Virus record (IMG/VR): IMGVR_UViG_3300036794_000053
Location: 42,198-106,197 of that record
Source: a virus
Taxonomy: Duplodnaviria; Caudoviricetes
Reading direction: 5' to 3' (one strand)
Length of the DNA stretch: 64,000 nucleotides
Below the pieces are notes generated by a model that saw only the letters and a program-made list of their open reading frames with translations, was not told the origin of the DNA and did no database searches. Made by a program: the position numbers and the translations under genes. Below, piece after piece: positions 2,834-56,012 of the stretch. Within the stretch, counting starts at the first letter, position 1. Every line of letters starts with the position of its first letter.

Positions 2834-3508
2834 TCACTCACCTTCCTTGAGTACGGTGCCGATCGCCTCGGCGACCATGCAGCCCTGCGCCCACGGCAGC
2901 CGCACCGTGATTTCCACGGTGTCGTCGTAGTAGGACTTGACCTTGCCGCCGTGGTCGTAGCTGCCGAAGCTGACCTCCGGCTTGTGGCTGTCGCGGTCCC
3001 ACCTGTCGCGGCGTACCTCGCCGTTGAGCAGGCCGGCGATCTTGTCCATGAACCGGTCGAGCCGCGCCGCCGTGTCGTCACTGTCCTGTTTGCGTGCGGC
3101 CAAGCTGGCCACCATGTCGGCCAGCCCGGGCAGTAGGCGGCGGGTGATGTCCTTCGCCGCGGCCGTGGCCGTCTTCTCGTCCGACACGGTGATCGACTTG
3201 TTGCTGCTCTCTTGGTACCGCTCGTGCTTGGTCAGTTCGCGCTCGATGCTCCAGGCGATCGCCACGCGGCCGGCGAGCTGGTAGCCACCCATCCGTACGT
3301 GTAGCTTCTGTCCGTCCGGGCCGGTCAGGTGCGCGTCTTCACCGTTGGACCAATGCCCGGGTGTGGCCGACCAGTCCTCGCCGAGCTCGGCGGCGACTTC
3401 CTTGGCCCAGGTAATAGCTTTGCCGTTCATTTTGATGAACCTCTCCATGTGTGTTTTCTCGTCGGCGAGCACGCCAGCGAGCCGCAGAGCGATTGTGTTC
3501 TGGCTCAC
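2834..3508 (-). CDS. Hypothetical protein
   Basis: 224-aa ORF with GGAG RBS, in the leftward operon. Confidence 0.75.
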   Translation of the reverse strand: MSQNTIALRLAGVLADEKTHMERFIKMNGKAITWAKEVAAELGEDWSATPGHWSNGEDAHLTGPDGQKLHVRMGGYQLAGRVAIAWSIERELTKHERYQESSNKSITVSDEKTATAAAKDITRRLLPGLADMVASLAARKQDSDDTAARLDRFMDKIAGLLNGEVRRDRWDRDSHKPEVSFGSYDHGGKVKSYYDDTVEITVRLPWAQGCMVAEAIGTVLKEGE

Positions 3509-6491: not shown

Positions 6492-7660
6492 ACGGTCATC
6501 TCCTCCGATAGCGCGGAGTACTCCGGCCGTGCGTCAACCCACGTGCGGAACGCGTCCCATGTCCAGCCACCGGCCAGGATCACGGGCACGGTGAGATGAC
6601 GGGTGTACTCCACCGACGCCGCCACTAGATCTAGCGCGGCCCGTACCTCTTGAGTGTCGAGTGACGCGGCGAATACCCGTACCTCAAACGTTGCCCAATT
6701 CTGGACGTTGATAGCGGAGTAGCGTTCTCCGTCGCGGTCGCCTTTAGCGGATGCTTTCAGATTGGGCCGTTTGGCGTGCGAGAATGACGCCCACTCGTAT
6801 GAGCGGCGGCGGGCGACACCTGACACCCCGTCCGCGTTACGGTAAATCAGCTGCATCCACCGGTAGACATGGGCCGGGCCGTCGAACGCGTCACGGTTAA
6901 CATGCACGTGCATGCCTGCCCCGTCCGCGTCCGCTCCGGCGCACCGTAGGTCACGCAGCATTGACCACGGGAAACTTTCGGATGCGTATTCGTGTGTCAT
7001 TGGGTGCGTGACAATCTCGAACCCGTCGGCTAGGGAGCAGTCTTCTTTCAGGTATCCGAGCTGCCCTAACTCCTGCGATGCGATCTGGGCGCACTGCCCG
7101 TCCGCATAGTTGAGTTCGAGTTCCATACCTAGGTAGACGCGCCCCTTCCCGTGGAATTCGGGGCGAGGCTTATACCCGTAGTTATTGAGATATGACTCGG
7201 CCGTGTCGTGGCAGTCGCTGCACCGCTCACCATGCTCCACCCACCGGGAGCAACCGTCGCACTGTGAGTAGCTCTCGTCACGGCAGTCGTCACACAGTTC
7301 GTTGCTGTATCCGGAGTATTCGGGGGCAACGTCAGTCAAGTCATAGTCATCTTCGGAGAAAAGATGGCACTGTTCGCAGCGGGCTACGGTGCACCCGAAA
7401 CAAACTTCACGGTTGTGAATGGTGGGATGGGTGGTCACGGTGCGTTCGTCGCATCGTTCGCACGTGGGTAGGTCTGCCGCGCATGTGTGGCAGACGGGCG
7501 TGCCATCTACCCATATACCGGTGGGCACGGTGAGGACGAGGTCTTCGTCGCGCCATGCCGTGTGGTACGGCATGAGCCACACGTCTGCGCATTGGGTACA
7601 GCGTTCGGCCCCGGGGACGCGTGCTGGGGGGGGAAACAGGGGTAGGGTGCTGCTAGTCAT
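6479..7660 (-). CDS. Amidoligase (COOH-NH2 ligase) with N-terminal Zn-finger repeats
   Basis: 'YLGMELE', 'KEDCSL..GFEIVTHP', 'GMHVHV', 'RYSAIN', 'TFEVRVF'; multiple CxxC pairs; AGGAG RBS before the ATG at 7660. Confidence 0.85.
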   Translation of the reverse strand: MTSSTLPLFPPPARVPGAERCTQCADVWLMPYHTAWRDEDLVLTVPTGIWVDGTPVCHTCAADLPTCERCDERTVTTHPTIHNREVCFGCTVARCEQCHLFSEDDYDLTDVAPEYSGYSNELCDDCRDESYSQCDGCSRWVEHGERCSDCHDTAESYLNNYGYKPRPEFHGKGRVYLGMELELNYADGQCAQIASQELGQLGYLKEDCSLADGFEIVTHPMTHEYASESFPWSMLRDLRCAGADADGAGMHVHVNRDAFDGPAHVYRWMQLIYRNADGVSGVARRRSYEWASFSHAKRPNLKASAKGDRDGERYSAINVQNWATFEVRVFAASLDTQEVRAALDLVAASVEYTRHLTVPVILAGGWTWDAFRTWVDARPEYSALSEEMTVCAS

Positions 7661-52173: not shown

Positions 52174-52305
52174 CTAAGGCAGCACGTCATCGTCATCGAC
52201 GTACTCGTCATCATCGTCGGCTTGGCTGCGTGTCATATAGGCGGCCACCCCGATCAGCAGCAGCGTGACCGCCACCGCGAGCGCGATCTTCCACCCGTCA
52301 CCCAT
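52174..52305 (-). CDS. 43-aa single-TM protein with acidic tail, coupled to Ro60
   Basis: Hand translation MGDGWKIALAVAVTLLLIGVAAYMTRSQADDDDEYVDDDDVLP. Confidence 0.6.
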   Translation of the reverse strand: MGDGWKIALAVAVTLLLIGVAAYMTRSQADDDDEYVDDDDVLP

Positions 52306-53875
52306 TCCACGGCCAACTTCCGTTGTGCCCGGATTCGAGCAGCGGGATCATCTTGAACGTGTGGTCTCCCATGCCGCCGAGCTGGTAGCGGTTCGGCTTA
52401 TCCGGCAACATCGCCCGGTTGTAGCCGCCCAGGTTGAACGCGTAGATCGGGATGTTCGGCGGCGCACCGTCGGACACGTTCCCCCGATAGTTAGCGAACG
52501 ACTGCTCATCGGTGATGATGACCACCCGGTCATGCTTGGCATAAGCGCCGTGGATCGCCGCGGCGGTTTCGGTGCCGTGCCCGACCTCGCCGACCCGCTT
52601 AACGAACCGTTCCACCTCAGGTAGGACGCTGCCACCGGTGGTGATCTTGTGCTTGAAGATGCCGGAGGCGTATCCGTATAGGTCGACGTTGTTGGCGCCG
52701 CACTTGTTGGCCAACGCCACCCCGAACAACGACGCCGTCATGACTGGGCTGATCTTCGACTTCGCCGAGTAGGTCATCCCGGACATAGACCCCGAGGTGT
52801 CCACCAGGATCAGTGTCCGCCCGGTCAGCGCCGGGAGGTTCTGAAACGCCGAATCCAGAGCCTTCCCGAGCGCCACCTTCCACCGGTCATTACTGATCTC
52901 CTGGTAGGCGGAGAACCAGCGGTACGGTAGCTGCCGCGACTTGGCCACCACCTCCGGGTCGCTGATCGTGGCACACACCTTCGCCGCCACCTCATCAGAG
53001 ACCCCAGCCTCATCGAAATTCCTGAGGTTCCGGATCAACGCCATGACCCCCATGTTCGGGATCATCGACTCCCACGCGCCCTTATCCATCGGACCCTGCA
53101 ACCAACCAGCGACCGCCTCCCAAGTCATCCCCGCGTCATTCAACGCAACCGGGTCCAACGCGGCACGACGCTCACCAACCGGCAACGCCATCAACTGCGC
53201 ACGATTGGTCAACACCCGCAGCGACTCCGGGATCGGATTGTCCCGGTTGTGCCGGCGAGCCAACGCATGCTCATACAGATCACCCTGCCAACTGGCCTTC
53301 TTATCCGGGTGGGTCAGATCGAGCACGTCACCGAACCGGACGGAACGCTTCTCATTCGCCGTGTCGTACTTCAGCAGGGACCGCTCGTTGTACAGCCTTT
53401 CGGCCGCGTCGGCGACGCCGCGCTTCAACGGCTTCGGCAGCGAACGCCCATACTGACCCATCCAATAGGCCAGCATCTCCCCCGGCTCATCGGCCCGCTG
53501 CAACACCGAACTCACCACGGCACGGCCACCGGGAATTTTGCTGCCCAATGCGGCCTGCACAAACTCGGCCGCACCCACCAGTGACGCGGAGCGCATGTTG
53601 CCGTCGCCGCGTAGCCACCGCAGGAAATCGGCGGTCCATTCGGCGTCCTCAACGGTCGCCTTCCGCACCAACGCGGAGAACCGGGCGTCCCTGTCCTCCG
53701 CCTTCTCATAGAAGGTGCTCTCCCCAACAAAGTTGGAGACGGCGAGGAGGAACAGTTCCGACTTGGTGTCCCGCGCATACGCGGCGTGGCCCTCATACGT
53801 TGTGCCCGAAGGGGTCGCGGCGGTGCGCATAGGGCTGTGCGCGCGGGGCTGGACGTGCTGGTTGAACTTGGCCAC
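52298..53875 (-). CDS. rsr: Ro60/Rsr-like TROVE + vWA RNA-binding protein
   Basis: TROVE 'ELFLLAV..FYE', 'RADEPGE.LAYW', 'LLKYD', 'MALIRNLRN', 'SRQLPYR'; vWA MIDAS 'DTSGS' and 'ITDEQ'. Confidence 0.95.
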   Translation of the reverse strand: MAKFNQHVQPRAHSPMRTAATPSGTTYEGHAAYARDTKSELFLLAVSNFVGESTFYEKAEDRDARFSALVRKATVEDAEWTADFLRWLRGDGNMRSASLVGAAEFVQAALGSKIPGGRAVVSSVLQRADEPGEMLAYWMGQYGRSLPKPLKRGVADAAERLYNERSLLKYDTANEKRSVRFGDVLDLTHPDKKASWQGDLYEHALARRHNRDNPIPESLRVLTNRAQLMALPVGERRAALDPVALNDAGMTWEAVAGWLQGPMDKGAWESMIPNMGVMALIRNLRNFDEAGVSDEVAAKVCATISDPEVVAKSRQLPYRWFSAYQEISNDRWKVALGKALDSAFQNLPALTGRTLILVDTSGSMSGMTYSAKSKISPVMTASLFGVALANKCGANNVDLYGYASGIFKHKITTGGSVLPEVERFVKRVGEVGHGTETAAAIHGAYAKHDRVVIITDEQSFANYRGNVSDGAPPNIPIYAFNLGGYNRAMLPDKPNRYQLGGMGDHTFKMIPLLESGHNGSWPWNG

Positions 53876-53922
53876 TTGCTTACCTTTCTCGGGGCAAGGG
53901 GGAACCCAACAACTGCAAGGTG

Positions 53923-54050
53923 GCGCCGAGGTCGAGGCAGCAACGGCCGTTTACCTCCGGAACCTATCCGGCTACCGGAAGGCGCGACCTCCCGGCGGGA
54001 TTCGAACCCGATCACTGTGATGTGAAGTAACCGTTACCTACGCACCGGCA
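53923..54050 (-). ncRNA. Y RNA (YrlA-like) no. 8 in transcription order, permuted tRNA-like domain
   Basis: CCGGUGCGUAG...UACUUC...UCGACCUCGG; T arm CGGG-UUCGAAU-CCCG, closed acceptor stem CCGGGAGG/CCUUCCGG, then UAGC and a D-like arm. Confidence 0.85.
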
Positions 54051-54070
54051 CCATGCAGTTGTTAAGGACC

Positions 54071-54143
54071 CCCGAGGTCACATCGCAGTTCGACGGGCTT
54101 TCCAATTTCGAGTTGAAGTAACCGTCAGTCGCTTCGCACCGGG
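54071..54143 (-). ncRNA. Y RNA-like no. 7, minimal
   Basis: CCCGGUGCGAAG..GACGG-UUACUUC...CCGUC..UGACCUCGGG. Confidence 0.75.
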
Positions 54144-54158
54144 AGCAAAACTAAAGGC

Positions 54159-54229
54159 GCTCCGAGGTCAAGGTCGGACAAGGCTTTCAAATTTGCAGTG
54201 TGAAGTAGCCCTGCCCTACGCACCGGAGC
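54159..54229 (-). ncRNA. Y RNA-like no. 6, minimal
   Basis: GCUCCGGUGCGUAG..CUACUUC...UUGACCUCGGAGC. Confidence 0.75.
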
Positions 54230-54242
54230 TCACTATTGGGTA

Positions 54243-54381
54243 GACCCGAGATCGAAAGCGGTCGAGGAGACAGGTGTCCTAGCGTTAGACGACGTCACGG
54301 GCTTTCGCCAACGCGACGGCAGGAGTCCAACCTGCATCACCCTCTTATGAGGAGAAGTATCCCCAACCTACGCACCGGGTC
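54243..54381 (-). ncRNA. Y RNA (YrlA-like) no. 5, permuted tRNA-like domain
   Basis: T arm GCAGG-UUGGACU-CCUGC, acceptor CGUCGCG/CGUGACG capped by GGC-GAAA-GCC, D arm UCGUCUAACGCUAGGAC. Confidence 0.8.
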
Positions 54382-54393
54382 AGTGAGGTGCTG

Positions 54394-54542
54394 GGTGGTC
54401 CAGAGATCAGTCGCGGGTGACGGGCTTACAGACCATTGCTCTGCCAACTGAGCTACCCCCCAACAAGTTGGGAAGCCAGGACTCGAACCTGGGACACGTG
54501 GTTCCACTTGAAGTATCCGTCGGTGCACGCACCTGGACCACC
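54394..54542 (-). ncRNA. Y RNA (YrlA-like) no. 4, near-complete permuted tRNA
   Basis: T arm CCAGG-UUCGAGU-CCUGG, acceptor CUUCCCA/UGGGGGG, D arm UA-GCUC-AGUUGGCA-GAGC; 10-bp closing stem GGUGGUCCAG/CUGGACCACC. Confidence 0.88.
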
Positions 54543-54561
54543 ATGAAGTTGTCAAAGAGGT

Positions 54562-54676
54562 TGACCCGAGATCGAGTCGACGACGGCACTAGTACTGCTG
54601 TGAGGGGCTCGAACCCTCTAGCCTCCGTTAGAAGGCGTTCTCCAATTGAAGTATCCGTCGGCTACGCACCGGGTCA
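54562..54676 (-). ncRNA. Y RNA-like no. 3, hairpin plus T arm
   Basis: UGACCCGGUGCGUAG..AUACUUC..GCCUUC/GGAGGC, GAGGG-UUCGAGC-CCCUC..UCGAUCUCGGGUCA. Confidence 0.8.
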
Positions 54677-54693
54677 CCATGAAGTTGTAGGGC

Positions 54694-54816
54694 GGTCCGA
54701 GGTCGAGGCGTTCGGCGGACTGGAGGGGTCTAACCTCCTCGCCCCCGAATGCGGTAACGCAAGCAGGGACTTCCAACAACTGGTTCGGAAGTATCCGCAG
54801 AACTTCGCACCGGACC
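54694..54816 (-). ncRNA. Y RNA-like no. 2, variant T arm
   Basis: GGUCCGGUGCGAAG..AUACUUC..GGAGG-UUAGACC-CCUCC..UCGACCUCGGACC. Confidence 0.75.
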
Positions 54817-54831
54817 ACTCTGGAGTTAGGT

Positions 54832-54907
54832 GCACGAGGTCAAGACGCTCGGTTCCGGCGTGGGCTTCACCAAAAGAAGTAGCCGGGGTTTGAGCTTCGC
54901 ACCGTGC
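54832..54907 (-). ncRNA. Y RNA-like no. 1, minimal
   Basis: GCACGGUGCGAAG..CUACUUC...UUGACCUCGUGC. Confidence 0.75.
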
Positions 54908-54914
54908 GACTTCA

Positions 54915-54945
54915 AAGCTATCAGAGGGGCGAGATCATTCGTCAA
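54915..54945 (-). promoter_or_regulatory. Sigma70-type promoter for the Y RNA array and Ro60
   Basis: -35 TTGACG (54945-54940), 19-bp spacer ending in TGA (extended -10), -10 TAGCTT (54920-54915); the predicted start coincides with the 5' end of the first unit. Confidence 0.55.
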
Positions 54946-55010
54946 GTCGGTTAGTGACTACTCACCCAGAATATTCGACCGCTCGACTGATTGTGCCGTG
55001 ACCTGGCAAG

Positions 55011-55196
55011 ATGGCCGCCATGGACGAGGACAGAAGTTTCGGCGCCGGCCGCATCGCCGAGCTGAAGTACTGGATCGACCGCATCGGCGACCACGACACC
55101 ATCAGCGAGTACATGACCAACGACATGAAGAAACGGCTGGCCGAACTGCTAGGACATAAAAAAGCCCCGCCAGTCCCGGAGGACAGCGGGGAGTAA
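55011..55196 (+). CDS. Small hypothetical protein
   Basis: Protein-like 61-aa ORF divergent from the array. Confidence 0.45.
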   Translation: MAAMDEDRSFGAGRIAELKYWIDRIGDHDTISEYMTNDMKKRLAELLGHKKAPPVPEDSGE

Positions 55197-55206
55197 TGAC
55201 GCCACA

Positions 55207-55431
55207 CTACACGTGTTCCGGGGGAGAGCCACCAGCGAGCGCGGTGTTGACCATGATGTGGTGTGGCGCCTGCCAGTCAACCCAACGCTGGAATTCTTCC
55301 GCCCCAACCAGCGCCTCGCACACCGTACGTGCCGCACAGCACCGACTCATCACCTGAATGTTTCCATCAGACTGGAGCTGACGAACCATGTGCGCCAGCG
55401 CGGCTATCGCCGCTCGCAATTCATTGTTCAC
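55207..55431 (-). CDS. Hypothetical protein
   Basis: GTGA coupling to the phosphoesterase. Confidence 0.55.
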   Translation of the reverse strand: MNNELRAAIAALAHMVRQLQSDGNIQVMSRCCAARTVCEALVGAEEFQRWVDWQAPHHIMVNTALAGGSPPEHV

Positions 55432-56012
55432 CGCAGAACCTTCCCTCCGATCACCTCGGCCACCTCGTCAATGCTGACCGGCGCCCAATCCCACACATCC
55501 ACACCCACATTGATCTGCCGCTTCCGCCGCTTCCACGCCTCATGCACATGTCCATGCAGCAACCACGCCCCACCCGGATCACGCAACCGGTAGGTCGAGT
55601 ACCGCTCGGTGTCCGTGTGGTCACCCTCGAACGGGAAGTGACTGAGTAGCACATCGCAACCTCGGATCTTTCTCCGCGCGAACGCCTGCACCGAATCGAA
55701 GACTTCCAGCCAGGATCGCTGGTGGATGTAGGATTCGCGGTTCCCAGGCCACACCTGGTCGTGGTTGCCGGCGATCAGGTGTTTGTGCCCGTTCAACCGT
55801 TTGACCGTTTCGAGGATGGTGGTGGCCGAGCCGACACCGACGTCACCCAGGTGCCACACATGGTCCTGCGGGCGGACCCGTTCGTTCCATTGCCAGATCA
55901 GGTGTTCGTCGTGTTCCTGCACGGTGTGGAACGGGCGCCAACCTTTCCCGGTCGCGGCCATCGCGCTGTGCCCGAAGTGGGTGTCGGCTGTGAAGAAAAC
56001 GTTACTCATCAC
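55428..56012 (-). CDS. Calcineurin-like metallophosphoesterase
   Basis: DTHFGH, LGD, GNHD, HFP, LHGHVH. Confidence 0.92.
   Translation of the reverse strand: MMSNVFFTADTHFGHSAMAATGKGWRPFHTVQEHDEHLIWQWNERVRPQDHVWHLGDVGVGSATTILETVKRLNGHKHLIAGNHDQVWPGNRESYIHQRSWLEVFDSVQAFARRKIRGCDVLLSHFPFEGDHTDTERYSTYRLRDPGGAWLLHGHVHEAWKRRKRQINVGVDVWDWAPVSIDEVAEVIGGKVLR

What the first reader, a model, noticed from the sequence alone, without database searches (positions are those of the whole stretch)
53908..54945. Eight-member Y RNA array feeding a phage Ro60: one constant Ro-binding handle, variable payloads
Seen: the ~1 kb non-coding stretch upstream of, and co-oriented with, the TROVE gene consists of eight tandem units (71-149 nt). 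On the minus strand each reads [unit-specific closing stem]-GGUGCG(A/U)..stem..UACUUC-[variable domain]-stem-GA(C/U)CUC-[closing stem]. The closing stems differ between units but remain paired (GCUCCG/CGGAGC, GACCCG/CGGGUC, GGUGGUCCAG/CUGGACCACC, GCACG/CGUGC), i.e. visible covariation. Known: GGUGCGA/U(C/U)GACC resembles the bulged helix that Ro60 binds in Y RNAs, and bacterial/phage YrlA RNAs lie next to rsr genes and mimic tRNA. Unusual here: eight copies with payloads in three classes - full permuted tRNA mimics (3), T-arm-only (2), minimal loops (3). Inference: a modular phage RNP in which one Ro60 ring is loaded with a repertoire of adaptor or decoy RNAs, e.g. to titrate host anticodon nucleases or tRNA-targeting toxins, or to recruit different RNA-processing enzymes.
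Basis: partly seen in the sequence, partly recalled or inferred. Interest (0 to 1): 0.93.

Follow-up and report, generated by a model that had tools for sequence, protein, structure and literature searches.

The report
Eight-gene Y RNA array beside phage Ro60
A 106-kb uncultured phage carries eight small RNA genes in a row just ahead of its Ro60 gene; they are bacterial-type Y RNAs, a known kind of Ro60 partner RNA, and eight is the largest such array among about 100 related loci examined.

Summary
The minus strand of 53921-54910 holds eight tandem units of 75-145 nt upstream of, and co-oriented with, a TROVE+vWA (Ro60/Rsr) gene.

- **Motif:** the motif pair GGTGCGW...TACTTC occurs 8 times there and nowhere else in 64 kb (0.03 expected).
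- **Independent detection:** a covariance model built only from units of 13 other phage contigs finds all eight (E 7e-20 to 9e-4). The next best hit in the window has E 0.18.
- **Stems:** the closing and inner stems are unit-specific and covary.
- **Payloads:** three units are permuted tRNA-like (YrlA type), two carry a hairpin plus a T arm, and three are minimal.

This is the known Ro60/Y RNA system of actinobacteria and their phages, not a new kind.

- The same handle lies beside Ro60 genes in cultured Streptomyces, Gordonia and Arthrobacter phages (3-5 units, unannotated or called as tiny ORFs).
- It also lies beside Ro60 genes in actinomycete chromosomes (2-5 units) and in 75 IMG/VR loci (mode 2, maximum 6).
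- Eight is the top of that range.
- The units are diverged subtypes with counterparts elsewhere, not recent duplicates.

The anticodon-nuclease decoy idea is not supported, because no unit has an anticodon arm. This scan has noted similar Ro60-linked RNA arrays before on other DNA.

The parts
54829..54910 (-). Unit 1, minimal class: 4-bp closing stem GCAC/GUGC, handle GGUGCGAAG, two-part inner stem, small hairpin CUUC...GAAG
   Evidence: R1 57.9 bits, R2 21.1 bits E 8.7e-4; fold; best outside match 77-79% in L262 and L198
54692..54818 (-). Unit 2: handle + V hairpin + long hairpin + T-like arm with loop UUAGACC (not canonical)
   Evidence: R2 26.2 bits E 4.5e-5; fold; no close counterpart elsewhere
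54561..54677 (-). Unit 3: handle + tetraloop hairpin + canonical T arm (GGGUUCGAGCCCC)
   Evidence: R2 36.3 bits E 1.2e-7, R1 26.9 bits; fold
54396..54540 (-). Unit 4, full YrlA type: handle, V hairpin, T arm, 7-bp acceptor-like stem closed by a loop, D arm (GUAGCUCAGUUGGCAGAGC), 9-bp closing stem
   Evidence: R2 84.1 bits E 6.7e-20 over the whole model; Rfam YrlA 34 bits E 3.7e-5, below the gathering score of 69
54241..54383 (-). Unit 5, second tRNA-like subtype (D arm of the GUCUAGCGG...GGAC kind); T loop altered to UUGGACU
   Evidence: R2 49.4 bits E 5.2e-11; full-length 67-72% matches next to Ro60 in L192, L236, L260 and L245
54157..54231 (-). Unit 6, minimal class
   Evidence: R1 66.9 bits, R2 37.1 bits; 78% match in bacterial locus L180
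54067..54147 (-). Unit 7, minimal class
   Evidence: R1 50.5 bits, R2 28.8 bits
53921..54053 (-). Unit 8, full tRNA-like type next to the Ro60 gene: canonical T arm, 8-bp acceptor-like stem, D-like arm
   Evidence: R2 55.9 bits E 1.1e-12 over the whole model
52298..53875 (-). Ro60/Rsr gene (525 aa, GTG start): TROVE ring + vWA domain with an intact MIDAS motif (DTSGS)
   Evidence: Pfam TROVE 5.6e-13 and VWA_2; PHROG 850 6e-43; PDB 9KOP phage phiLo Ro60 3e-28; sequence
54915..54945 (-). Candidate promoter of the array: TTGACG (54945-54940), 19-nt spacer, TAGCTT (54920-54915), ending 7 nt before the closing stem of unit 1
   Evidence: Read from the sequence. A TANNNT hexamer at this distance precedes 9 of 13 first units but only 2 of 40 inner units. 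Inferred, not shown.
55165..55181 (-). Intrinsic terminator of the upstream gene (GC-rich hairpin + U6), which sets the array and Ro60 apart as their own transcription unit
   Evidence: alignment
54680..54688 (-). Spacer motif ACAACUUCA between units 2 and 3; also at 54544-54552, and as ACAACUGCA at 54054-54062
   Evidence: The motif recurs in spacers of many related arrays, phage and bacterial. Its role as a processing site is inferred.

Best explanation
This is a polycistronic array of eight Y RNA genes of the bacterial YrlA/YrlB kind, lying just upstream of the phage's own Ro60 (Rsr) gene and probably transcribed with it.

Each unit has four parts: a unit-specific closing stem; a constant handle (5' GGUGCG(A/U)(A/G)G, 3' (U/C)GA(C/U)CUC, and an invariant UACUUC at the top of a variable inner stem); the inner stem itself; and a payload. 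The handle corresponds to the Rsr-binding stem of YrlA RNAs. The payload is one of three kinds: a permuted tRNA-like module (T arm, closed acceptor-like stem, D arm; units 4, 5, 8), a hairpin plus T arm (units 2, 3), or a small hairpin (units 1, 6, 7).

Shown here: the units, their covarying stems, their homology to units beside Ro60 genes in many phages and actinomycetes, and the intact Ro60 gene.

Inferred from published work on D. radiodurans, Salmonella, M. smegmatis and Thermus phage phiLo:
- the RNAs are cut out of one precursor by host nucleases;
- each binds one Ro60 ring through the handle;
- the payload decides what else the particle touches. Candidates are host PNPase or other exonucleases, and enzymes that read the tRNA elbow such as RNase P, TruB or the CCA-adding enzyme.

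On this reading the phage re-aims host RNA decay or quality control during infection.
For: - **Units:** 8 motif-defined units against 0.03 expected.
- **Independent model:** model R2, built only from other phages' units, finds all 8 and nothing else in the window.
- **Stems:** they are unit-specific by permutation test. Across 18 minimal units from 15 loci the covariation score is 0.472 against 0.164 shuffled (0 of 500) and 0.09-0.15 for slid controls. The T arm and acceptor-like stem show compensatory changes in 13 of 15 pairs.
- **Strand:** G-U pairs make the structure specific to the Ro60 coding strand.
- **Protein:** TROVE + vWA with MIDAS, similar to the solved phage Ro60.
- **Linkage:** the same handle lies upstream of Ro60 in 14 phage loci and downstream of it in a fifteenth, phage Atuin. 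It lies next to Ro60 in 9 of the 12 best actinomycete hits, whose Ro60 is 48-58% identical to the window's. 195 motif units lie upstream of 75 IMG/VR Ro60 genes, against a background of 0.1 per kb.
- **Published partners:** Rsr-bound YrlA/YrlB in M. smegmatis, with the ACUUC and T-arm segments visible in the probe sequences. Phage phiLo Ro60 binds two upstream Y-like RNAs and forms a complex with host PNPase in vitro.
- **Single transcription unit:** a -10-like hexamer precedes first units only, 9 of 13 against 2 of 40. Spacers are short and often carry ACAACUUCA.
Against: - There are no expression or binding data for this phage.
- The Rfam YrlA model scores only 34 bits against a cut-off of 69, and for one unit only.
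- The published 5' motif GNCGAAN0-1G is matched only approximately: GUGCGAAG in three units, GCGUAG in four, GCGUGC in one.
- Units 2 and 5 have non-canonical T loops and could be decaying.
- The promoter and the processing site are consensus-level inferences.
- The phage encodes no RtcB, CCA-adding enzyme or RNA ligase that would point to a pathway.
Confidence: 0.85

Rival explanations
1. The units are not released as separate RNAs. They form a structured 5' leader of the Ro60 mRNA, and repeated Ro60-binding sites let the protein regulate its own synthesis.
For: The array lies directly upstream of Ro60 on the same strand, with no terminator between unit 8 and the start codon in this window. 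In several relatives a hairpin plus U tract overlaps the Ro60 ribosome-binding region.
Against: In phage Atuin the units lie downstream of Ro60 with a tRNA gene between them, and in BRock and pSt2308 they run on from tRNA arrays. Homologous RNAs in M. smegmatis, Salmonella and D. radiodurans are discrete Rsr-bound RNAs. Each unit closes on itself with its own stem.
Confidence: 0.06
2. The units are tRNA-derived decoys or processing substrates that act without Ro60, for example by soaking up host tRNA-binding enzymes or toxins. On this reading the linkage to Ro60 is only genomic.
For: T arms, D arms and acceptor-like stems are well conserved. Relatives embed the units in tRNA operons.
Against: The three minimal units have no tRNA-like part yet keep the handle exactly. 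The handle is the most conserved feature, and it follows Ro60 genes across phages and bacteria. No unit has an anticodon arm.
Confidence: 0.05
3. The region is a relic: decayed tRNA genes or tandem duplicates with no present function, or short protein-coding ORFs as annotated in phage Neville.
For: ARAGORN finds no tRNA there. Units 2 and 5 have altered T loops. GenBank annotators called 34-66 aa ORFs over the homologous region of Neville.
Against: The handle motifs are exact in all eight units. The stems keep pairing through compensatory changes. Each unit's nearest relative is in another phage, not in this array, so these are conserved subtypes rather than fresh copies. The same structures recur over Ro60 proteins only 40-60% identical.
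Confidence: 0.03

Closest known systems
Mycobacterium smegmatis Rsr with YrlA and YrlB (Chen et al. 2014, PMC4201824)
   Same: Y RNA genes lie 5' of the Ro60 gene on the same strand. YrlA has a stem plus a permuted tRNA-like domain (T arm, acceptor-like stem, D arm), and YrlB has a T arm only. The ACUUC segment followed by the T arm is visible in the published probe sequences. Actinomycete loci found here carry the same handle, and their Ro60 is 48-58% identical to the window's.
   Different: Two RNAs are described there and eight are found here. The minimal class (no tRNA part) is not described for M. smegmatis. In window units 2 and 3 an extra hairpin sits between ACUUC and the T arm. [quoted passage not shown]
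Thermus phage phiLo Ro60 with Yrl1 and Yrl2 (PMC12135203; PDB 9KOP, 9L5Y)
   Same: A phage-encoded Ro60 with Y-like RNAs in the upstream non-coding region. The RNAs are stem-bulge-stem with a CGAA-type motif. The protein is similar by sequence (E 3e-28).
   Different: Two simple RNAs there, against eight here including tRNA-like ones. The host phylum differs. The protein is only about 29% identical by tblastn.
Deinococcus radiodurans Rsr-Yrn1-PNPase (RYPER) and Salmonella YrlA/YrlB
   Same: The Y RNA is modular: one module binds Ro60 and the other tethers or gates. Several small RNAs are encoded upstream of rsr (four in D. radiodurans).
   Different: Handle sequences differ, and Yrn1 has its tRNA-like parts in a different order. 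The Rfam YrlA model (Salmonella-centred) scores only 34 bits on unit 4.
YrlA-like RNAs of mycobacteriophages (e.g. ET08; 22 phages in Chen et al. 2014)
   Same: Actinophage Ro60 genes with a YrlA-type RNA within 4 kb on the same strand.
   Different: That survey reported tRNA-like YrlA matches only. T-arm-only and minimal units, and arrays of 4-8, are not described in the text I could read; its supplementary tables were not available.

Membership tests
YrlA (Rfam RF02553) | Reaches the family's curated gathering score (69 bits) | tested here: not met
   No match at gathering threshold in the window. The best is unit 4 at 34 bits, E 3.7e-5. No gathering-level YrlA match in 12 related phage loci either, so the curated model does not reach this actinophage branch.
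YrlA (as defined by Chen et al. 2014) | Lies within 4 kb of a Ro60 ortholog on the same strand | tested here: met
   The units end 46 nt upstream of the Ro60 start, on the same strand.
YrlA (as defined by Chen et al. 2014) | tRNA-like domain in the order T arm, closed acceptor-like stem, D arm, closed by a long stem formed from the 5' and 3' ends | tested here: met
   Units 4, 8 and 5 align over the whole of model R2 (84, 56 and 49 bits). The T arm and acceptor-like stem covary in the family. Units 1, 2, 3, 6 and 7 lack all or part of this domain, so they are YrlB-like or minimal rather than YrlA.
YrlA (as defined by Chen et al. 2014) | 5'-strand motif GNCGAAN0-1G (proposed Rsr-binding site) | tested here: inconclusive
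   Units 1, 2 and 7 read GUGCGAAG, one base more than the motif. Units 3, 5, 6 and 8 read GUGCGUAG, and unit 4 reads GUGCGUGC. The CG(A/U)A core is kept but the published motif is not matched exactly.
Y RNA in the functional sense | Bound by Ro60 in cells; discrete stable small RNA | not testable with these tools
   Needs Northern or small-RNA sequencing and Ro60 pull-down.
Ro60 / Rsr protein | TROVE (HEAT-repeat ring) domain followed by a vWA domain with a MIDAS motif | tested here: met
   Pfam TROVE 49 bits (cut-off 23). VWA_2 at 24.8 bits is just under its cut-off of 27. DTSGS, GT and D motifs are present. PHROG 850 full length 6e-43. PDB 9KOP 3e-28.
Metazoan Y RNA (Rfam RF00019) | Match to the curated model | tested here: not met
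   No Y_RNA match at E<=10 in 53500-55300.
tRNA genes | Cloverleaf with an anticodon arm, detected by ARAGORN or Rfam tRNA at threshold | tested here: not met
   ARAGORN finds 0 in the window. Rfam tRNA gives 22.3 and 16.8 bits against a cut-off of 29. The handle stem occupies the place of the anticodon arm.

The most novel reading that the evidence does not exclude
The eight units are at least six distinct, separately conserved Y RNA subtypes, including two tRNA-like kinds with different D arms. Each subtype would program the same phage Ro60 ring to engage a different host RNA enzyme or substrate. The array would then be a multi-adaptor kit that expands under selection in phage-host conflict, rather than redundant copies.
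Probability: 0.25. Interest if true: 0.7.

Novelty: new member of a known kind. Interest (0 to 1): 0.45.

Why it matters
Ro60 and Y RNAs are conserved from bacteria to humans, where Ro60 is a lupus and Sjogren autoantigen. What the second module of a Y RNA does is still largely open, especially for the tRNA-like YrlA RNAs.

- This locus and its relatives show that actinophages and actinomycetes routinely carry several handle-sharing Y RNAs of different classes, up to eight here.
- Curated tools miss them: Rfam YrlA stays below threshold, and GenBank records leave them blank or call tiny ORFs.
- The same arrays occur in cultured, easily handled phages (BRock, pSt2308, Quantum, Neville, VanLee, Atuin). 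The question of what each Y RNA class recruits can therefore be tested directly with knock-outs and Ro60 pull-downs.
- It is an extension of a known system, not a new one.

Tried and rejected
1. Rfam at gathering threshold on the window and on 12 related loci found tRNAs only and no YrlA.
2. megablast of the locus against GenBank phages found no match. Relatives came only through the protein and a DNA pattern (most single hits there were chance).
3. Model R1, built from minimal units, found the three minimal units strongly, two others weakly (units 3 and 8) and missed units 2, 4 and 5. R2 replaced it.
4. A loose home-made descriptor gave about 1000 hits, with 526 in shuffled DNA. It was dropped as a detector and used only inside Ro60-adjacent regions, with hand curation.
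5. RNAalifold on the MAFFT alignments recovered only the closing stem, or that stem plus the T and acceptor-like stems. The inner stem had to be given by hand.
6. Fetching the M. smegmatis YrlA/YrlB locus with the published probe sequences failed. One pattern found nothing and the other found only tRNA-like sites in unrelated genomes. The link to validated Y RNAs therefore rests on short probe sequences and on unnamed actinomycete genomes.
7. Simple Watson-Crick pairing of the two handle strands (GGU with ACC) does not covary cleanly across handle variants, so I treat the handle as a conserved non-canonical internal loop.
8. A sigma-70 reading of the spacer motif was rejected because the spacing to any -35-like element is too short.
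9. RtcB, CCA-adding enzyme and RNA ligase were not found in the contig.
10. The Sim et al. 2020 review and the supplementary tables of Chen et al. 2014 were not held.

Full report
**What is there**

The window is the right-hand 64 kb of a 106-kb IMG/VR viral contig (62% G+C, CheckV completeness 86%). Gene 52298-53875(-) encodes a 525-aa protein. It has a Pfam TROVE domain and a vWA domain whose MIDAS motif (DTSGS) is intact. It matches PHROG 850 over its full length and resembles the solved Ro60 of Thermus phage phiLo at E 3e-28.

Upstream on the same strand, the pattern GGTGCGW-N6-20-TACTTC occurs eight times between 54024 and 54903. It occurs nowhere else in the window or the contig; 0.03 matches are expected by chance. 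Each occurrence is followed by GA(C/T)CTC, and each unit folds into a long bulged stem closing a variable interior.

**Is it more than chance, and is it RNA?**

Three independent checks say yes.

1. I built covariance model R2 only from 16 full-length units of 13 other phage contigs (alignment A2). With filters off, it finds all eight window units at E 6.7e-20 to 8.7e-4. The next best hit on either strand of the 64 kb has E 0.18.
2. I defined the units by sequence motifs alone and then tested pairing. The bases 5' of the handle pair with the bases 3' of the same unit's GAYCUC (mean 6.1 consecutive pairs) but not with those of other units (1.7). Only 2 of 40320 permutations match the observed total. 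The inner stem gives 12 of 40320.
3. I aligned 18 minimal units from 15 loci with MAFFT, without fitting to a structure. The closing and inner stems give a covariation score of 0.472, against 0.164 +/- 0.021 when shuffled (0 of 500) and 0.09-0.15 when the partners are slid. Twelve pairs change on both sides.

In the full units, the T arm and the acceptor-like stem show compensatory changes in 13 of 15 predicted pairs. G-U pairs make the structure specific to the Ro60 coding strand.

**Anatomy**

Every unit has the following parts, in order:

- a unit-specific closing stem of 4-9 bp;
- the 5' handle strand GGUGCG(A/U)(A/G)G;
- a variable inner stem of 5-10 bp;
- an invariant UACUUC that opens a small hairpin;
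- the payload;
- the 3' strand of the inner stem;
- the 3' handle strand (U/C)GA(C/U)CUC;
- the 3' strand of the closing stem.

| Units | Payload |
|---|---|
| 4, 8, 5 | Align over the whole of R2: T arm, acceptor-like stem closed by a loop, D arm (84, 56 and 49 bits) |
| 3, 2 | A hairpin followed by a T arm; canonical in unit 3, loop UUAGACC in unit 2 |
| 1, 6, 7 | Only the small hairpin |

No unit has an anticodon arm; the handle stem stands where it would be. ARAGORN finds no tRNA in the window.

**What it belongs to**

The only suggestive Rfam match is YrlA, the bacterial Y RNA family: 34 bits against a gathering score of 69, E 3.7e-5, on unit 4. No related phage locus reaches the YrlA threshold either, so the curated model does not cover this branch. 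Homology established here fills the gap.

- **Cultured phages.** The handle and unit architecture recur beside Ro60 genes in Streptomyces phages pSt2308 (5 units), BRock (4) and Quantum (3). They also recur in Gordonia phages Neville (4) and VanLee (4; two by the model, two by eye). In Arthrobacter phage Atuin there are 4, downstream of Ro60 with a tRNA between them.
- **IMG/VR contigs.** These carry 2-7 units.
- **Actinomycete genomes.** Of 151 genomes sampled, R2 gave strong full-length hits in about a dozen. Nine of the 12 best lie directly upstream of a Ro60 gene 48-58% identical to the window's, in tandem sets of 2-5 with the same handle and the same order: minimal unit first, full tRNA-like unit next to the gene.

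This is the arrangement published for M. smegmatis, where Rsr pulls down YrlA (tRNA-like, cleaved by RNase P, CCA added) and YrlB (T arm only). The published probe sequences show the same ACUUC segment followed by the T arm. One genome in the sample (G007) is unpublished; no claim here rests on it.

**How unusual is eight?**

Across 75 further IMG/VR Ro60 loci with at least 1.5 kb of upstream DNA, I counted motif-defined units on the Ro60 strand.

| Units upstream of Ro60 | 0 | 1 | 2 | 3 | 4 | 5 | 6 |
|---|---|---|---|---|---|---|---|
| Loci | 6 | 4 | 30 | 18 | 11 | 3 | 3 |

The background rate is about 0.1 per kb. Adding the loci studied by model (maximum 7, in L011), eight is the largest array in roughly 100 loci.

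The units are not fresh copies. For seven of the eight, the best non-self match lies in another contig. Unit 5 belongs to a conserved tRNA-like subtype with a different D arm, which sits next to Ro60 in four other contigs. Unit 2 has no close counterpart.

**Expression signals (inferred)**

- A strong intrinsic terminator at 55165-55181(-) ends the upstream gene.
- Seven bases before unit 1's closing stem lies TAGCTT, preceded at 19 nt by TTGACG. A TANNNT hexamer at this distance precedes 9 of 13 first units but only 2 of 40 inner units. The four exceptions follow a tRNA gene or a tRNA-like T arm, or, for L011, have no such hexamer at that distance.
- Spacers are 8-25 nt long and often carry ACAACUUCA or a near variant, in phage and bacterial arrays alike.

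These signals fit one promoter, one precursor, and cleavage in the spacers. From memory, mycobacterial RNase E prefers cutting before C in RN-CNU, which this motif contains. That is a lead, not a result.

**Mechanism**

By analogy with D. radiodurans (Y RNA tethers Rsr to PNPase), Salmonella and M. smegmatis, and phage phiLo (Ro60 binds two upstream Y-like RNAs and joins host PNPase in vitro), each RNA most likely binds one phage Ro60 ring through the handle. Its payload would then select what the particle engages.

The contig encodes no RtcB, CCA-adding enzyme or RNA ligase, so any partners would be host enzymes. Enzymes that read the tRNA elbow or acceptor end remain possible targets.

**Literature and earlier notes**

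In the library I could search, published phage examples have at most two Y-like RNAs (phiLo). There are also three unassigned abundant RNAs near an Rsr-like gene in a Listeria phage. Chen et al. 2014 list 355 YrlA-like sequences in 254 bacteria and 22 phages and note multiple hits in some genomes. I found no description of 4-8-unit, multi-class arrays, but the 2014 supplementary tables and the 2020 review were not available.

This scan has already reported Ro60-linked arrays of handle-sharing RNAs in other, mostly more divergent, phages. I did not test those notes.

**Verdict**

The feature is real and well supported. It is correctly read as a Y RNA array partnered with a phage Ro60. It is the largest member seen so far of a known system rather than a new kind.

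Noticed in passing
L014 (Gordonia phage Neville, NC_060131) 2463-2975: The annotated tiny ORFs gp88-gp90 (43-50 aa) lie over the first three Y RNA-type units found by model R2. The annotated Ro60 start (2923) lies inside the fourth unit (2887-2975), while the tblastn match starts at 3031. These look like RNA genes called as proteins and a start codon called too early.
   Followed up: partly
L013 2420-3001 (BRock), L012 2305-3001 (pSt2308), L016 2477-3001 (Quantum), L017 2353-3001 (VanLee), L015 4644-5335 (Atuin): Gaps in published phage genomes that are unannotated, or hold one annotated tRNA (VanLee, Atuin), contain 3-5 Y RNA-type units each. In BRock and pSt2308 the units continue a long tRNA array. 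In Atuin they lie downstream of Ro60 with tRNA-Thr between units 1 and 2.
   Followed up: yes
L069 ~6715-6760, L120, L100, L055, L053, L178 (just before the Ro60 start codon): In many relatives a GC-rich hairpin followed by a short U tract ends 3-8 nt before the Ro60 start codon, and its 3' arm holds the only Shine-Dalgarno-like GGAG. It could be a terminator or attenuator between the array and Ro60, or a translational switch. The window itself has no such hairpin at 53876-53920.
   Followed up: no
window 54680-54688, 54544-54552, 54054-54062: The spacer motif ACAACU(U/G)CA between units recurs in spacers of phage and bacterial arrays (for example L009, L055, L069, L092, L100, L178). It is a possible nuclease recognition site.
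   Followed up: partly
window 55428-56012 (-): A calcineurin-like metallophosphoesterase (Pfam Metallophos_2, PHROG 547) lies two genes upstream of the array on the same strand. Enzymes of this kind accompany RNA-repair genes in some large phages, but no link was tested.
   Followed up: no
contig G000:C1 26622-27930 (outside the window): The phage has six ordinary tRNA genes (Met, Pro, Trp, Lys, Arg, Ile) about 70 kb from the Y RNA array. In BRock-like phages, by contrast, tRNAs and Y RNAs are interleaved.
   Followed up: partly
L172 1501-2209 (-) and L178 1501-2003 (-) (unnamed actinomycete genomes G081, G149): Bacterial chromosomal Ro60 loci carry 5 and 4 tandem units with the same handle. 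Published work on M. smegmatis describes two. Whether these regions are prophages was not checked.
   Followed up: partly
window 54962-55207 (-) / 55011-55196 (+): Two overlapping short ORFs lie between the upstream terminator and the array. Neither matches Pfam or PHROGs, so which one, if either, is a gene is unclear.
   Followed up: no
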